Assembly: GCA_009914755.4 (NCBI GenBank)
Contig: CP086569.2
Location: forward strand, 31,104,001-31,168,000
From: the human T2T-CHM13v2.0 reference genome, Homo sapiens
DNA length: 64,000 nt
Direction: 5' to 3'
Shown here: one piece after another, positions 1 through 64,000 of the stretch
Position numbering within the stretch: the first letter of the stretch is position 1
Layout of the letters: every line of letters starts with the position of its first letter
Notes under the pieces: model-generated
Told to the model about the DNA's origin: nothing
What the model saw: only the letters and a program-made list of their open reading frames with translations
Databases searched by the model: none
Translations under genes and position numbers: made by a program

Positions 1-148
1 CACCAGCTGCCACCATGCCTAGCTAATTTTTTGGATTTTTAGTAGTGACAGCCTTTCACTGTATTGGCCAGGATGGTCTTGATCTCTTCACCTTGTGATC
101 CCCTTGCCTTGGCCTCCAAATTTGCTGGGATTACAGGCCTGAGCCAAG
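1..148 (-). mobile_element. Alu (partial; only the 5' half is in the window), reverse orientation, old and CpG-decayed
   Basis: The reverse complement of the Alu left monomer and A-box region ('...ccaccatgcctagctaattttttggatttttagtagtgacagcctttcactgtattggccaggatggtcttgatctc...gctgggattacaggcctgagccaag') ends at 148. Confidence 0.9.
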
Positions 149-2274
149 ATCCATATTTTTTAAATGAAAAAAAATTTCAAAGGTACTCTGCTTGGTACAA
201 TAATCAAATGTATAAACTGAGGAATAAAACATAACCATGAAACCTACTTATAACTGCATATGGAAAATACAGAGGATAATTTTTTAAATAACATATTTTG
301 AAAGCCTTAACTAGTAATTTGAAGAGTTGGCATTTGAAAGGCCAGTATGAATATACCTTCAAAGCAGCAACACAGGTTCCCCATGAGAAAAAGCAAACAC
401 AGGGAAAATAAAAACACAAAGGTTCAATCTCTTCTGACCTTTGAAAGACACAGCACAGACAGTGGTCCTTAGGACGAAGAGCAGGAGACCCCTAATTCCG
501 TCACCATGGCGATAGGGCATAAACATTGCTGGGTGAGGGCACAATCCACATTGTGAGGTCCAACTGCTGCCAGGAAGACAGGAGTGCTTTTACATAGACC
601 GAAAGGTCATTGAAGGCTCAGAGTTTTGTTTCAAGAACTGAATCCCAAGCCCACACGTTATTAGGCTGCGCTTCTTAAAACAAGTTATGAGATGGGAGAA
701 AGGGCACCCACAAACATACGTATACATTATGTATATAATAATATAGAGTGTCATATATATAATATATATAACCTATGTATAATATTGTTTTACATCCTGC
801 ATCTTATGTTATATATATCGTATAAAATATAATATTTGATAATATATAAGTTTTATAATTATACAATATGACATATAGTATATATTATAATTTATGACAT
901 ATATAATATATGTTATATATCATATATAGAATATATTATAGGGTTAATATACGTATTAAATATAAATTATACATTATATATATTATATATACTATATCTG
1001 TTATATGTAATACCCATTATGCATAATATATATATTATGTCTATGTTATATATAGTATAAAACAACATATAATAATATATAATTGTATATATAAAATGCG
1101 ACATATAATATATATTATATTTTATAACATATGTAATATATATTATATATTATATATAATACGTTGTATGTATAATACCTATATTAAATATATAATATAT
1201 GACTATGTTATTAATTACATGTCACATGTGTTATATATTATATATTTTATATAGAATATACCGGTTACATACAATATATACTATGTTACCTATAATGTAT
1301 AATTTATTACATGTAAAATAAAGAATGCAATATATTATGTATAATTTATAATATACCATATGTGGAATGTGATATATATAACATATAATATATGATATAT
1401 GATATACAGTATATGATATATAACATACAATATATGATTCCTAATATATATGGTATACAATATATATTTTATGATATGTATTCTATATGTTTTATATTCT
1501 GTTATATATAACTATTTGAAATTATATATAACTGTATAATATTTTATGTAAATATGTAATATAATATATATAACTATATAATATACTATATATAACTATA
1601 TATTATGTTATATATACTTTTATAACATAATTTACATAACATATCATAATATAATATATATTATATTATTTCATATTACATAATATATATTACATATCAC
1701 CCAATATAACTAACATACATAATATTATAATATAGATTATATTGTGTTATATTAAATATCATATATATCATGTATCATATATTCTATAATATATATTACA
1801 CATTATATAATATGTATGTTGTCTATTATGTGATATATATAACTCTATATATAATTATATTTTTATACATATAACTAGATAAACATGTAATTCTACATAT
1901 TTTCATTTATAATATGTAGAATTATATAATCATATATAATTATTTATATTCTATAAAAAATTTTATCATTCTATAAATTATAATATATAAAAATTATAAT
2001 ATGTACTACAAATATATATATTATATATCATATATGATATAGTACCTTTGTTATATATCATAATACATATAAATGTGTATTATGTTATCTATAATTATAT
2101 AATTTCATATATAAGATGTATAATATGTATCATATATTATATATGTTATGTAATATATATAGTATATATAAGATGACACAGGATAAATATTATATACTAT
2201 GACATATAAAATATATGAGGTTATATGTTACATATAAGGCATAGCACATAACATGTAATATATATCATATATAA
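1..2274. repeat. Unit U0 (partial; lacks the first ~146 bp of its Alu), subfamily I, TA-L type
   Basis: Position 1 aligns to position 2421 of the next unit (offset 2420). Contains 'atatataagttttataattatac' and 'tatattatatattatatataatacgttg'. Confidence 0.9.
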
Positions 2275-2568
2275 TTTTTTTTTAGACAGAATCTTGTCCT
2301 GTTGCACAGGGTGGGGTACAATGGCGCCATCTTTGCTCACTGCAACTTCTGCCTCACGGGACCAAGCGATTGTCCTCCCTCAGCCTCCCAGGTAGCTGGG
2401 ACTACACCACACTGGGACTACACCAGCTGCCACCATGCCTAGCTAATTTTTTGGATTTTTAGTAGTGACAGCCTTTCGCTGTATTGGCCAGGATGGTCTT
2501 GATCTCTTCACCTTGTGATCCCCTTGCCTTGGCCTCCAAATTTGCTGGGATTACAGGCCTGAGCCAAG
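2275..2568 (-). mobile_element. Alu (~294 bp), reverse orientation, old J-like and CpG-decayed, one per repeat unit
   Basis: A poly-T run (the poly-A tail on the minus strand) is followed by the reverse complement of the Alu consensus ('agacagaatcttgtcctgttgcacagggtggggtacaatggcgccatctttgctcactgcaac...gcctcccaggtagctgggactaca...'). Ends '...gctgggattacaggcctgagccaag'. 'GGGACTACA' is a J-like state. Many CpG sites are converted to TG or CA. Confidence 0.93.
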
Positions 2569-3138
2569 ATCCATATTTTTTAAATGAAAAAAAATTTCAA
2601 AGGTACTCTGCTTGGTACAATAATCAAATGTATAAACTGAGGAATAAAACATAACCATGAAACCTACTTATAACTGCATATGGAAAATACAGAGGATAAT
2701 TTTTTAAATAACATATTTTGAAAGCCTTAACTAGTAATTTGAAGAGTTGGCATTTGAAAGGCCAGTATGAATATACATTCAAAGCAGCAACACAGGTTCC
2801 CCATGAGAAAAAGCAAACACAGGGAAAATAAAAACACAAAGGTTCAATCTCTTCTGACCTTTGAAAGACACAGCACAGACAGTGGTCCTTAGGACGAAGA
2901 GCAGGAGACCCCTAATTCCGTCACCATGGCGATAGGGCATAAACATTGCTGGGTGAGGGCACAATCCACATTGTGAGGTCCAACTGCTGCCAGGAAGACA
3001 GGAGTGCTTTTACATAGACCGAAAGGTCATTGAAGGCTCAGAGTTTTGTTTCAAGAACTGAATCCCAAGCCCACACGTTATTAGGCTGCGCTTCTTCAAA
3101 CAAGTTATGAGATGGGAAAAAGGGCACCCACAAACATA
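2569..3138. other. Representative 'unique-like' segment of the unit (~570 bp); moderately AT-rich, non-Alu and not a simple repeat, of unknown derivation, with the same segment present in every unit
   Basis: It runs from the end of the Alu ('gagccaag') to 'cacaaacatacgtatacattatg'. It holds most of the unit's few non-Alu CpGs ('ccgtcaccatggcgatagg', 'gaccgaaagg', 'cacacgttattaggctgcgcttc'). It hosts the 61-aa and 71-aa minus-strand ORF artefacts. Confidence 0.7.
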
Positions 3139-16767
<13,629 letters not shown>

Positions 16768-17061
16768 TTTTTTTTTAGACAGAGTCTTGTCCTGTTGCAC
16801 AGGGTGGGGTACAATGGCGCCATCTTTGCTCACTGCAACTTCTGCCTCACGGGACCAAGCGATTGTCCTCCCTCAGCCTCCCAGGTAGCTGGGACTACAC
16901 CACACTGGGACTACACCAGCTGCCACCATGCCTAGCTAATTTTTTGGATTTTTAGTAGTGACAGCCTTTCACTGTATTGGCCAGGATGGTCTTGATCTCT
17001 TCACCTTGTGATCCCCTTGCCTTGGCCTCCAAATTTGCTGGGATTACAGGCCTGAGCCAAG
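16768..17061 (-). mobile_element. Alu copy in U7 (variant B)
   Basis: Same Alu; poly-T at 16768. Confidence 0.92.
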
Positions 17062-19178
17062 ATCCATATTTTTTAAATGAAAAAAAATTTCAAAGGTACT
17101 CTGCTTGGTACAATAATCAAATGTATAAACTGAGGAATAAAACATAACCATGAAACCTACTTATAACTGCATATGGAAAATACAGAGGATAATTTTTTAA
17201 ATAACATATTTTGAAAGCCTTAACTAGTAATTTGAAGAGTTGGCATTTGAAAGGCCAGTATGAATATACCTTCAAAGCAGCAACACAGGTTCCCCATGAG
17301 AAAAAGCAAACACAGGGAAAATAAAAACACAAAGGTTCAATCTCTTCTGACCTTTGAAAGACACAGCACAGACAGTGGTCCTTAGGACGAAGAGCAGGAG
17401 ACCCCTAATTCCGTCACCATGGCGATAGGGCATAAACATTGCTGGGTGAGGGCACAATCCACATTGTGAGGTCCAACTGCTGCCAGGAAGACAGGAGTGC
17501 TTTTACATAGACCGAAAGGTCATTGAAGGCTCAGAGTTTTGTTTCAAGAACTGAATCCCAAGCCCACACGTTATTAGGCTGCGCTTCTTAAAACAAGTTA
17601 TGAGATGGGAAAAAGGGCACCCACAAACATACGTATACATTATGTATATAATAATATACAGTGTCATATATATAATATATATAACCTATGTATAATATTG
17701 TTTTACATCCTGCATCTTATGTTATATATATTGTATAAAATATAATAATTGATAATATATGTTTTATAATTATACAATATGACATATAGTATATATTATA
17801 ATTAATGACATATATAATATATGTTATATGTCATATATAGAATATATTATACGGTTAATATACGTGTTAAATATAAATTATACATTATATATATTATATA
17901 TAATATATCTGTTATATATAATACCCATTATGCATAATATATATATTATGTCTATGTTATATATAGTATAAAACAACATATAATAATATATAATTGTATA
18001 TATAAAATGCGACATATAATATATATTATATTTTATAACATATGTAATATATATTATATATAATACGTTGTATGTATAATACCTATATTAAATATATATT
18101 ATATGACTATGTTATTAATTACATGTCACATGTGTTATATATTATATATTTTACATAGAATATACCGGTTACATACAATATATACTATGTTACCTATAAT
18201 GTATAATTTATTACATGTAAAATAAAGAATGCAATATATTATGTATAATTTATAATATACCATATGTGGAATGTGATATATATAACATATAATATATGAT
18301 ATATGATATACAGTATATGATATATAACATACAATATATGATTCCTAATATATATGGTATACAATATATATTTTATGATATGTATTCTATATGTTTTATA
18401 TTCTGTTATATATAACTATTTGAAATTATATATAACTGTATAATATTTTATGTAAATATGTAATATAATATATATAACTATATAATATACTATATATAAC
18501 TATATATTATGTTATATATACTTTTATAACATAATTTACATAAAATATCATAATATAATATATATTATATTATTTCATATTACATAATATATATTACATA
18601 TCACCCAATATAACTAACATACATAATATTATAATATAGATTATATTGTGTTATATTAAATATCATATATATCATGTATCATATATTCTATAATATATAT
18701 TACACATTATATAATATGTATGTTGTCTATTATGTGATATATATAACTATATATATAATTATATTTTTATACATATAACTAGATAAACATGTAATTCTAC
18801 ATATTTTCATTTATAATATGTAGAATTATATAATCATATATAATTATTTATATTCTATAAAAAATTTTATCATTCTATAAATTATAATATATAAAAATTA
18901 TAATATGTACTACAAATATATATATTATATATCATATATGATATAGTACCTTTGTTATATATCATAATACATATAAATGTGTATTATGTTATCTATAATT
19001 ATATAATTTCATATATAAGATGTATAATATGTATCATATATTATATATGTTATGTAATATATATAGTATATATAAGATGACACAGGATAAATATTATATA
19101 CTATGACATATAAAATATATGAGGTTATATGTTACATATAAGGCATAGCACATAACATGTAATATATATCATATATAA
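16768..19178. repeat. Unit U7, 2411 bp, subfamily I, Alu-B + TA-S
   Basis: Landmarks at 16768 and 19179. Carries the 'gacagagtcttg' variant at the Alu start. Confidence 0.9.

Positions 19179-64000
<44,822 letters not shown>

What the first reader, a model, noticed from the sequence alone, without database searches (positions are those of the whole stretch)
1..19178. Clean two-unit higher-order repeat (4,831 bp): alternating 2,420-bp 'L' and 2,411-bp 'S' units with linked Alu haplotypes
Units U0 to U7 alternate strictly in length (2420, 2411, 2420 and so on). The 9-bp difference is always the same two indels in the TA-block ('atatataagtttt' versus 'atatatgtttt', and 'tatattatatattatatataatacg' versus 'tatattatatataatacg'). 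It is linked to other TA-block states ('atttatgacatat' versus 'attaatgacatat', 'tatagggttaatatacgtattaaat' versus 'tatacggttaatatacgtgttaaat'). It is also linked to an Alu haplotype (Alu-A 'tctctgctc...gggtcc' with L, Alu-B 'tctttgctc...gggacc' with S). The homogenised unit here is therefore the dimer, as in alpha-satellite higher-order repeats, but at macrosatellite scale.
Basis: seen in the sequence. Interest (0 to 1): 0.5.

Follow-up and report, generated by a model that had tools for sequence, protein, structure and literature searches.

The report
Local two-unit repeat in DYZ2 satellite
The first 20 kb of this window is human DYZ2/HSat1B satellite DNA in which a pair of slightly different 2.4-kb units was copied at least four times in tandem; this is a real but ordinary by-product of unequal exchange in a known satellite.

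Summary
The window contains 26.5 tandem units of about 2.4 kb. Units U0 to U7 are 2420, 2411, 2420, 2411 and so on. At a lag of 4,831 bp there are 33 mismatches and no indel over 15,238 positions (99.78%).

The repeat is DYZ2/HSat1B: a minus-strand Alu of about 290 bp, a GC-richer part of about 570 bp and an AT-rich block of about 1.55 kb. GC is 24.6% and the modal unit is 2,420 bp.

The comparison with alpha-satellite higher-order repeats is only formally right:
- L and S differ by about 11 mutational events (about 0.5%), not 20-40%.
- Only four dimers are visible. The array is cut at the window start, and the order then becomes S S L.
- Two units are L/S mosaics.
- The same window also holds 3-unit and 8-unit (19.35 kb) duplications, so the dimer is not the unit of the whole array.

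Both L and S are private, derived variants of the consensus unit. None of 22 external HSat1B contigs carries either.

The best explanation is stepwise tandem duplication of a dimer by out-of-register exchange. That process is already reported for Yq12, so interest is low.

The parts
1..20069 (+). Stretch in which the 4,831-bp (L+S) period is kept in exact register. It is cut on the left by the window start.
   Evidence: at lag 4831 there are 33 mismatches and 0 indels for positions 1-15238 against 4832-20069; lag 4831 dominates the exact 200-mer matches.
1..2420 (+). U0, an L unit of 2,420 bp. The other L units are 4832-7251, 9663-12082 and 14494-16913. A further L unit, U10, lies at 24145-26565 (2,421 bp).
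2421..4831 (+). U1, an S unit of 2,411 bp. The other S units are 7252-9662 and 12083-14493 (U5, with L-type bases at alignment columns 745 and 818).
16914..19324 (+). U7, a hybrid unit. It has the S core (both deletions and the S substitutions) but L-type states at columns 1847 and 1955 and at both Alu sites. It is followed directly by an S unit.
   Evidence: This pattern is what a one-unit-offset exchange between an S and an L unit would give (inference).
19325..24144 (+). U8 (2,409 bp) and U9 (2,411 bp). Both are S units that lack the 1955G state shared by U1, U3 and U5. The alternation ends here.
819..1144 (+). Cluster of L/S differences in U0 coordinates: 6 substitutions plus the AA and TTATATA indels. 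That is 8 of the 11 L/S differences, within 327 bp at the start of the AT-rich block.
   Evidence: Clustering P is about 1e-5.
2275..2566 (-). The Alu part of the unit. It is 5'-truncated and matches Alu consensus positions 13-289 at about 77% identity, with a 15-bp internal insertion. The two L/S-linked Alu sites are at 2333 and 2361.
   Evidence: a below-threshold match to the mir-1268 family, which I take to be Alu-derived (own knowledge). This agrees with the description.
2567..3140 (+). The GC-richer 'HSATI' part of the unit (39% GC), ending in ACATACG.
   Evidence: Hallast et al. describe the 7-nt 'ACATACG' at this junction and give a 566-bp HSATI part.
3141..4685 (+). The AT-rich block of an S unit (14% GC). 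All length variation lies in this block.

Best explanation
The window is an array of the human satellite DYZ2/HSat1B. It most probably comes from Yq12, but an acrocentric short arm is not excluded.

Two neighbouring units of a local sub-family each acquired a few private mutations. L gained 4-5 substitutions. S gained 4-5 substitutions plus a 2-bp and a 7-bp deletion in the AT-rich block.

Out-of-register exchange between sister chromatids (or replication-coupled slippage or repair), offset by two units, then duplicated the L+S pair stepwise. This gave at least four 4,831-bp copies.

Later events blurred the pattern. A short conversion put L bases into U5. An exchange offset by one unit made the hybrid U7 and the S-S junction.

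Nothing indicates a function for the dimer. It is a neutral footprint of how the satellite turns over.

What is shown: the structure, the linkage, the polarity of the mutations and the mosaics. What is inferred: the exchange mechanism, the order of events and the chromosomal origin.
For: Identity of the satellite:
- The modal unit length is 2,420 bp.
- The unit is tripartite, with a 292-bp minus-strand Alu about 20% diverged.
- ACATACG sits at the HSATI/AT junction. GC is 24.6%, with 1 CpG per 146 bp.
- Published DYZ2 values are a 2,420-bp consensus, 24% GC and 1 CpG per 150 bp, and a 290-bp Alu and 566-bp HSATI part.
- Units are 98.1-99.5% identical to a collapsed 2,420-bp HSat1B contaminant contig.

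The dimer as the copied unit:
- Distance matrix, lag tests and dimer-to-dimer distances of 5-17 per 4,831 bp, which rise with physical distance.
- The L and S trees are congruent in the S-L phase.

Polarity of the mutations:
- U11-U25 and all 22 external contigs carry the consensus state at the diagnostic sites. L and S each carry their own derived states.
- L and S also share five derived states. They are therefore sister types within one local family.

Mosaics U5 and U7.

[quoted passage not shown] Altemose et al. report repeat periodicities that vary and expand 'hyper-locally' within satellite arrays.
Against: - Only four dimers are seen, and the array is cut at the window start. A much longer and older dimeric array upstream cannot be excluded.
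- The clustering of 8 of the 11 L/S differences in 327 bp, with derived states interleaved between L and S, is not explained by simple point mutation followed by duplication.
- The chromosome of origin and the correctness of the assembly could not be checked.
- The window has many units that are not 2,420 bp long (16 of 26). The Hallast et al. supplement says 93.7% of Y units are 2,420 bp, so this stretch is atypical.
Confidence: 0.85

Rival explanations
1. Assembly artefact. The assembler threaded a repeat graph so that two real unit variants were laid down alternately, or collapsed and expanded copies, so the true array does not alternate.
For: Satellite arrays at 99% identity or more are the hardest regions to assemble. 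No read-level evidence is available here.
Against: The copies are not identical. Each L and S copy has its own private substitutions, and dimer distances rise with physical distance. That is expected of real, separately evolving copies, not of one path reused. The register is exact over 20 kb without any indel.
Confidence: 0.05
2. Chance alternation. L and S are two common unit variants that happen to alternate eight times, without the dimer ever having been copied as a unit.
For: With 4 L and 4 S units, strict alternation has P = 0.029, which is not vanishingly small. The pattern stops after eight units.
Against: Neither variant was found in any of 22 external HSat1B contigs, nor elsewhere in the window except U8-U10, so they are not common. 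The L and S genealogies are congruent: U4~U6 with 1 difference, and their left neighbours U3~U5 with 4 differences, the smallest S-S distance. A perfect 3,882-bp match at lag 4831 crosses the unit boundary between an S unit and the next L unit.
Confidence: 0.03
3. A true, long-lived higher-order repeat. The 4.8-kb dimer is a stable sub-family unit of DYZ2 that is homogenised as such over a long array extending upstream of the window, comparable to alpha-satellite higher-order repeats.
For: The pattern starts at the window edge, so its length is unknown. Dimer divergence of 0.1-0.35% is not trivially young. It corresponds to about 0.1-0.3 Myr at the roughly 5.6e-9 per bp per year I derive from 5 SNVs in 2.23 Mb between two Y chromosomes about 200 years apart, and to more at the euchromatic rate. 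This is a rough inference.
Against: L/S divergence is tiny, at about 0.5%. The pattern decays inside the window, and other periods (3 and 8 units) occur within 64 kb. The published descriptions I could read give 2.4 kb as the DYZ2 period and mention no dimer.
Confidence: 0.07

Closest known systems
DYZ2 / HSat1B satellite of human Yq12 (also present in smaller amounts on acrocentric short arms)
   Same: The unit length (modal 2,420 bp), the tripartite make-up (an Alu of about 290 bp that is about 20% diverged, an HSATI part of about 570 bp, and an AT-rich block that carries the length variation), the ACATACG junction, GC of 24.6% and 1 CpG per 146 bp all match.
   Different: Nothing differs in kind. 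This stretch has an unusually high share of units that are not 2,420 bp long. It also carries two private unit variants, L and S, not seen in 22 external contigs.
Alpha-satellite higher-order repeats
   Same: The formal definition is met. An ordered set of distinguishable monomers is repeated in tandem, and the copies of the set are more alike than the monomers within it.
   Different: Monomers within an alpha-satellite higher-order repeat differ by 20-40%, and those arrays hold hundreds to thousands of copies (own knowledge). Here the two monomers differ by about 0.5%, four copies are visible, and the pattern decays within the window.
Hyper-local nested and higher-order periodicities in classical satellites (NTRprism, Altemose et al.), and the iterative tandem duplications in Yq12 (Rhie et al.)
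   Same: This is the same phenomenon: multi-unit tandem duplications that arise locally in an array by unequal exchange.
   Different: The published Yq12 examples I could read are at the scale of kb to 5 Mb on dot-plots. I found no description of this particular 4,831-bp L/S dimer.
The 2-mer and 3-mer higher-order repeats of a '~2.4 kb monomer' on the human Y described with the GRM algorithm (PMC3592446)
   Same: A similar monomer size, and dimer and trimer organisation on the Y chromosome.
   Different: That repeat lies in contig NT_011903. I take this to be the AZFc region, and the repeat to be probably the DAZ intragenic repeat (own knowledge). Its monomer families differ by about 13% and measure 2,375-2,446 bp. 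It is not DYZ2.

Membership tests
DYZ2 / HSat1B | Tandem unit of about 2.4 kb, with a 2,420-bp consensus | tested here: met
   26 full units of 2,409-2,422 bp with a mode of 2,420. The published consensus is 2,420 bp.
DYZ2 / HSat1B | Tripartite unit: an AT-rich block, a 5'-truncated Alu of about 290 bp that is about 20% diverged, and an HSATI part of about 566 bp | tested here: met
   The Alu is at 2275-2566 on the minus strand. The GC-richer part is 573 bp and the AT block is 1,555 bp at 14% GC.
DYZ2 / HSat1B | 'ACATACG' at the junction between HSATI and the AT-rich block | tested here: met
   Present once per unit, at 714-720 in U0. Described.
DYZ2 / HSat1B | Composition of about 24% GC and about 1 CpG per 150 bp | tested here: met
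   24.6% GC and 1 CpG per 146 bp over the whole window.
DYZ2 / HSat1B | Units at least 98% identical to the family consensus | tested here: met
   12-47 differing columns per 2,420 bp (98.1-99.5%) against a collapsed 2,420-bp contaminant contig used as a stand-in for the consensus. The published consensus itself was not available.
DYZ2 / HSat1B | Location in Yq12, in blocks alternating with DYZ1, as opposed to acrocentric HSat1B | not testable with these tools
   No human genome assembly is searchable here. The window holds no DYZ1 and no flanking sequence.
Higher-order repeat in the alpha-satellite sense | A fixed order of distinguishable monomers repeated in tandem, with the copies of the set more alike than the monomers within it | tested here: met
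   L-S distances are 17-29 columns, against 1-9 for L-L and 4-8 for S-S. Dimers are 99.65-99.9% identical. Lag 4831 dominates the repeat matches.
Higher-order repeat in the alpha-satellite sense | Monomers within the repeat strongly diverged (about 20-40%) | tested here: not met
   L and S differ by about 11 events (9 substitutions and 2 indels, about 0.5%).
Higher-order repeat in the alpha-satellite sense | Homogenised over a long array of many copies | tested here: inconclusive
   Four copies are visible. The pattern ends at U7/U8 on the right and is cut by the window on the left.

The most novel reading that the evidence does not exclude
DYZ2 blocks may not be simple 2.4-kb arrays. They may be patchworks of nested multi-unit repeats: 2-, 3- and 8-unit periods all occur within this one 64-kb window. 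Some of these, such as the L/S dimer, may be old enough (0.1 Myr or more) to be shared across Y haplogroups. They would then be usable as internal landmarks for reconstructing how Yq12 expands and contracts.
Probability: 0.25. Interest if true: 0.3.

Novelty: new member of a known kind. Interest (0 to 1): 0.15.

Why it matters
It matters little in itself. It is one more example of satellite turnover by unequal exchange, in a satellite whose structure and dynamics have been published.

It has some practical value. The L and S diagnostic strings and the hybrid units U5 and U7 are exact, countable markers. They could be used to check assemblies of this region and to trace local duplication, conversion and one-unit-offset exchange events between Y lineages or between fathers and sons.

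Tried and rejected
1. Published higher-order repeats of a '2.4 kb monomer' on the Y (GRM paper). This concerns contig NT_011903 and monomer families about 13% apart. It is not DYZ2, so it is not a prior description of this dimer.
2. Literature searches for DYZ2 or HSat1B together with higher-order repeat or periodicity, and reading. No description of a 4.8-kb DYZ2 dimer was found. A search of the Hallast supplement for unit lengths 2404, 2411, 2413 and 2420 as bare numbers found nothing.
3. Conversion between the two internal 230-bp sub-repeats as the source of the clustered L/S differences. The paralogous positions do not carry the derived bases, so this was rejected.
4. A single conversion tract from one divergent donor. 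The derived states are interleaved between L and S, so this was rejected.
5. Looking for L or S units in other people through human contamination in bacterial genome and metagenome contigs. All 22 loci carry the consensus state. This sets the polarity of the mutations but gives no second instance of the dimer.
6. Rfam scan of the whole window. Nothing reached a gathering score. The only match is a below-threshold hit to mir-1268 inside the Alu.
7. Whether the array is on the Y or on an acrocentric arm could not be decided.
Full report
**What is in the window**

The sequence is one uninterrupted tandem array. An anchor taken from the first 30 bases recurs 27 times. This gives 26 complete units of 2,409-2,422 bp.

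Each unit has three parts:
- An Alu on the minus strand, for example at 2275-2566. Rfam gives only a below-threshold hit there, to the mir-1268 family, which I take to be Alu-derived (own knowledge).
- A GC-richer part of 573 bp (39% GC) that ends in ACATACG.
- An AT-rich block of about 1,555 bp (14% GC).

Over the whole window GC is 24.6% and there is one CpG per 146 bp. No Rfam family reaches its gathering score anywhere.

**Identity**

These features match the published description of DYZ2/HSat1B point by point:
- A unit of about 2.4 kb with a 2,420-bp consensus.
- The seven nucleotides ACATACG at the HSATI/AT junction.
- 24% GC and 1 CpG per 150 bp (Hallast et al.).
- An Alu of 290 bp at about 20% divergence, an HSATI part of 566 bp, and length variation mainly in the AT-rich part (their supplement).

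A scan of bacterial genome assemblies and metagenomes with a diagnostic pattern returned 22 human-contaminant HSat1B contigs. One is a collapsed unit of exactly 2,420 bp. The window's units are 98.1-99.5% identical to it.

HSat1B also occurs on acrocentric short arms. I cannot prove a Y origin with the tools available.

**Checking the observation**

Units U0-U7 measure 2420, 2411, 2420, 2411, 2420, 2411, 2420, 2411 bp.

In the alignment of all 26 units, the 9-bp difference is always the same two indels: AA at columns 847-848 and seven bases at columns 1138-1144. These are completely linked to substitutions at columns 892, 918, 940, 954 and 993. In U0-U6 they are also linked to column 1955 and to the two Alu sites at columns 2335 and 2363.

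Distances in differing alignment columns are 1-9 within L, 4-8 within S and 17-29 between the classes.

Exact 200-mers recur at lag 4,831 at 67% of possible positions, against 21% each at lags 2,411 and 2,420. An ungapped comparison at lag 4,831 gives 33 mismatches and no indel over 15,238 positions, with a perfect run of 3,882 bp.

Strict alternation of four L and four S units has P = 0.029 on its own. Two independent lines add to this. The genealogies of the L and S units agree: U4 and U6 differ by 1, and their left neighbours U3 and U5 differ by 4, the smallest S-S distance. Dimer-to-dimer distances (5-17 per 4,831 bp) also grow with physical distance.

**Limits of the pattern**

The register holds from position 1, where the window cuts it, to about 20,069. 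Beyond that the order is S (U8), S (U9), L (U10). Two other unit types follow (U11 and U12), and then a more divergent set (U13-U25) at 45-72 differences from U0-U12.

The pattern is not entirely clean:
- U5 carries L-type bases at columns 745 and 818, immediately left of its S core. The length alternation is undisturbed, so this is best read as a short conversion tract.
- U7 has the S core but L-type states at columns 1847, 1955, 2335 and 2363, and is followed directly by an S unit. An exchange between an S and an L unit misaligned by one unit would give exactly this (the mechanism is inferred).
- U8 and U9 lack the 1955G state that U1, U3 and U5 share. They therefore branched off before the dimer that was amplified.

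**Polarity of the mutations**

At the diagnostic sites, U11-U25 and all 22 external contigs carry one and the same consensus state.

Relative to that consensus and to the external 2,420-bp unit:
- L is derived at columns 745, 818, 940, 993 and 2363.
- S is derived at columns 892, 918 and 954, at both deletions, at column 2335 and, in three of its copies, at column 1955.
- L and S share five further derived states. They are therefore sister types within one local family.

Neither L nor S was seen outside this window. Both are rare, local variants of the consensus unit.

**Mechanism**

The simplest history has three steps:
1. Two adjacent units diverged slightly.
2. The pair was duplicated stepwise by out-of-register exchange offset by two units.
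3. Later conversion and a one-unit-offset exchange produced U5 and U7.

Yq12 has no homologue to pair with (own knowledge), so the exchange partner would be the sister chromatid. The T2T-Y paper reports sister-chromatid exchanges in Yq12 in about 15% of Strand-seq libraries. [quoted passage not shown] Altemose et al. describe repeat periodicities that vary along satellite arrays and expand 'hyper-locally'.

The same window supports this reading of local events:
- Positions 32,240-44,651 are repeated at 51,591-64,000 (lag 19,351, then 19,349, which is eight units). Only one substitution and two small indels separate the copies, and the repeat runs off the window end.
- U16 and U17 resemble U19 and U20 at a lag of three units.

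The copied unit is therefore two, three or eight monomers depending on where one looks.

**Comparison with alpha-satellite higher-order repeats**

The formal definition is met: a fixed order of distinguishable monomers, with the copies of the set more alike than the monomers within it.

The quantities are far apart. L and S differ by about 0.5%, against 20-40% for alpha-satellite monomers (own knowledge). Four copies are visible, and the pattern decays inside the window.

The dimer is the unit of the latest local amplification. It is not shown to be a stable unit of homogenisation.

**What remains unexplained**

Eight of the eleven L/S differences lie within 327 bp at the start of the AT block (P about 1e-5). 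This stretch overlaps an internal 230-bp sub-repeat of 1.9 copies.

The derived states alternate between L and S, which argues against a single conversion tract. Conversion between the two internal sub-repeats is not supported either. A local hypermutable patch, or separate conversions from donors outside the window, remain possible.

**Rivals**

- An assembly artefact is unlikely. The copies carry private substitutions and show a gradient of distance. It can only be excluded with reads.
- Chance alternation is unlikely, given the congruent genealogies and the rarity of both variants.
- A long-lived dimeric sub-family extending upstream cannot be excluded, because the window cuts the array. 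I derive a rate of about 5.6e-9 per bp per year from the five SNVs in 2.23 Mb between two Y chromosomes about 200 years apart. At that rate the dimer divergence of 0.1-0.35% corresponds to roughly 0.1-0.3 Myr. This is a rough inference only.

**Novelty and verdict**

The satellite, its anatomy and its mode of evolution are already published. I found no published description of this particular 4,831-bp L/S dimer. It is a new instance of a known kind of structure. Its interest is low, apart from its use as a set of exact markers for checking assemblies and for tracing local rearrangements in Yq12.

Noticed in passing
window 32240-44651 and 51591-64000: An eight-unit (19.35 kb) tandem duplication. 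About 12.4 kb is repeated at lag 19,351, then 19,349, with one substitution and two small indels. U14=U22, U15=U23 and U16=U24 are identical. It runs off the window end, and the left flank (30854-32239) is only about 98.7% identical.
   Followed up: partly
window 38642-43481 against 45902-50739: A nested three-unit similarity inside the eight-unit repeat. U16 resembles U19 (11 differences) and U17 resembles U20 (16 differences), at lag 7,260.
   Followed up: no
window 819-1144 (and the same place in every L and S unit): Eight of the eleven L/S differences cluster in 327 bp at the start of the AT block (P about 1e-5). Derived states are interleaved between L and S. Conversion between the internal 230-bp sub-repeats was tested and not supported.
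   Followed up: partly
window 805-1236 and the equivalent place in other units: An internal sub-repeat of about 230 bp and 1.9 copies (77% matches) at the start of the AT-rich block. Tandem Repeats Finder reported it in nine of the units.
   Followed up: no
L001-L005 (bacterial genome assemblies) and L006-L022 (metagenome contigs): Human HSat1B contamination in public microbial assemblies. One example is LZSC01000004.1, labelled 'Mycobacterium sp.': 2,497 bp, holding one collapsed 2,420-bp unit. All 22 loci carry the consensus state at the L/S sites. The T2T-Y paper reports this kind of contamination.
   Followed up: partly
window 26566-31390 (U11 and U12): Two transitional units between the L/S block and the more divergent U13-U25 set. 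U11 (2,415 bp) has a 5-bp deletion in the Alu and consensus-like states at the L/S sites. U12 (2,410 bp) has its own 3-bp and 7-bp deletions in the AT block.
   Followed up: no
whole window: Only 10 of 26 units are 2,420 bp long, whereas the Hallast et al. supplement states that 93.7% of Y DYZ2 units are 2,420 bp. The stretch is atypical in unit length. It may lie near the edge of an array or in a peripheral block.
   Followed up: no
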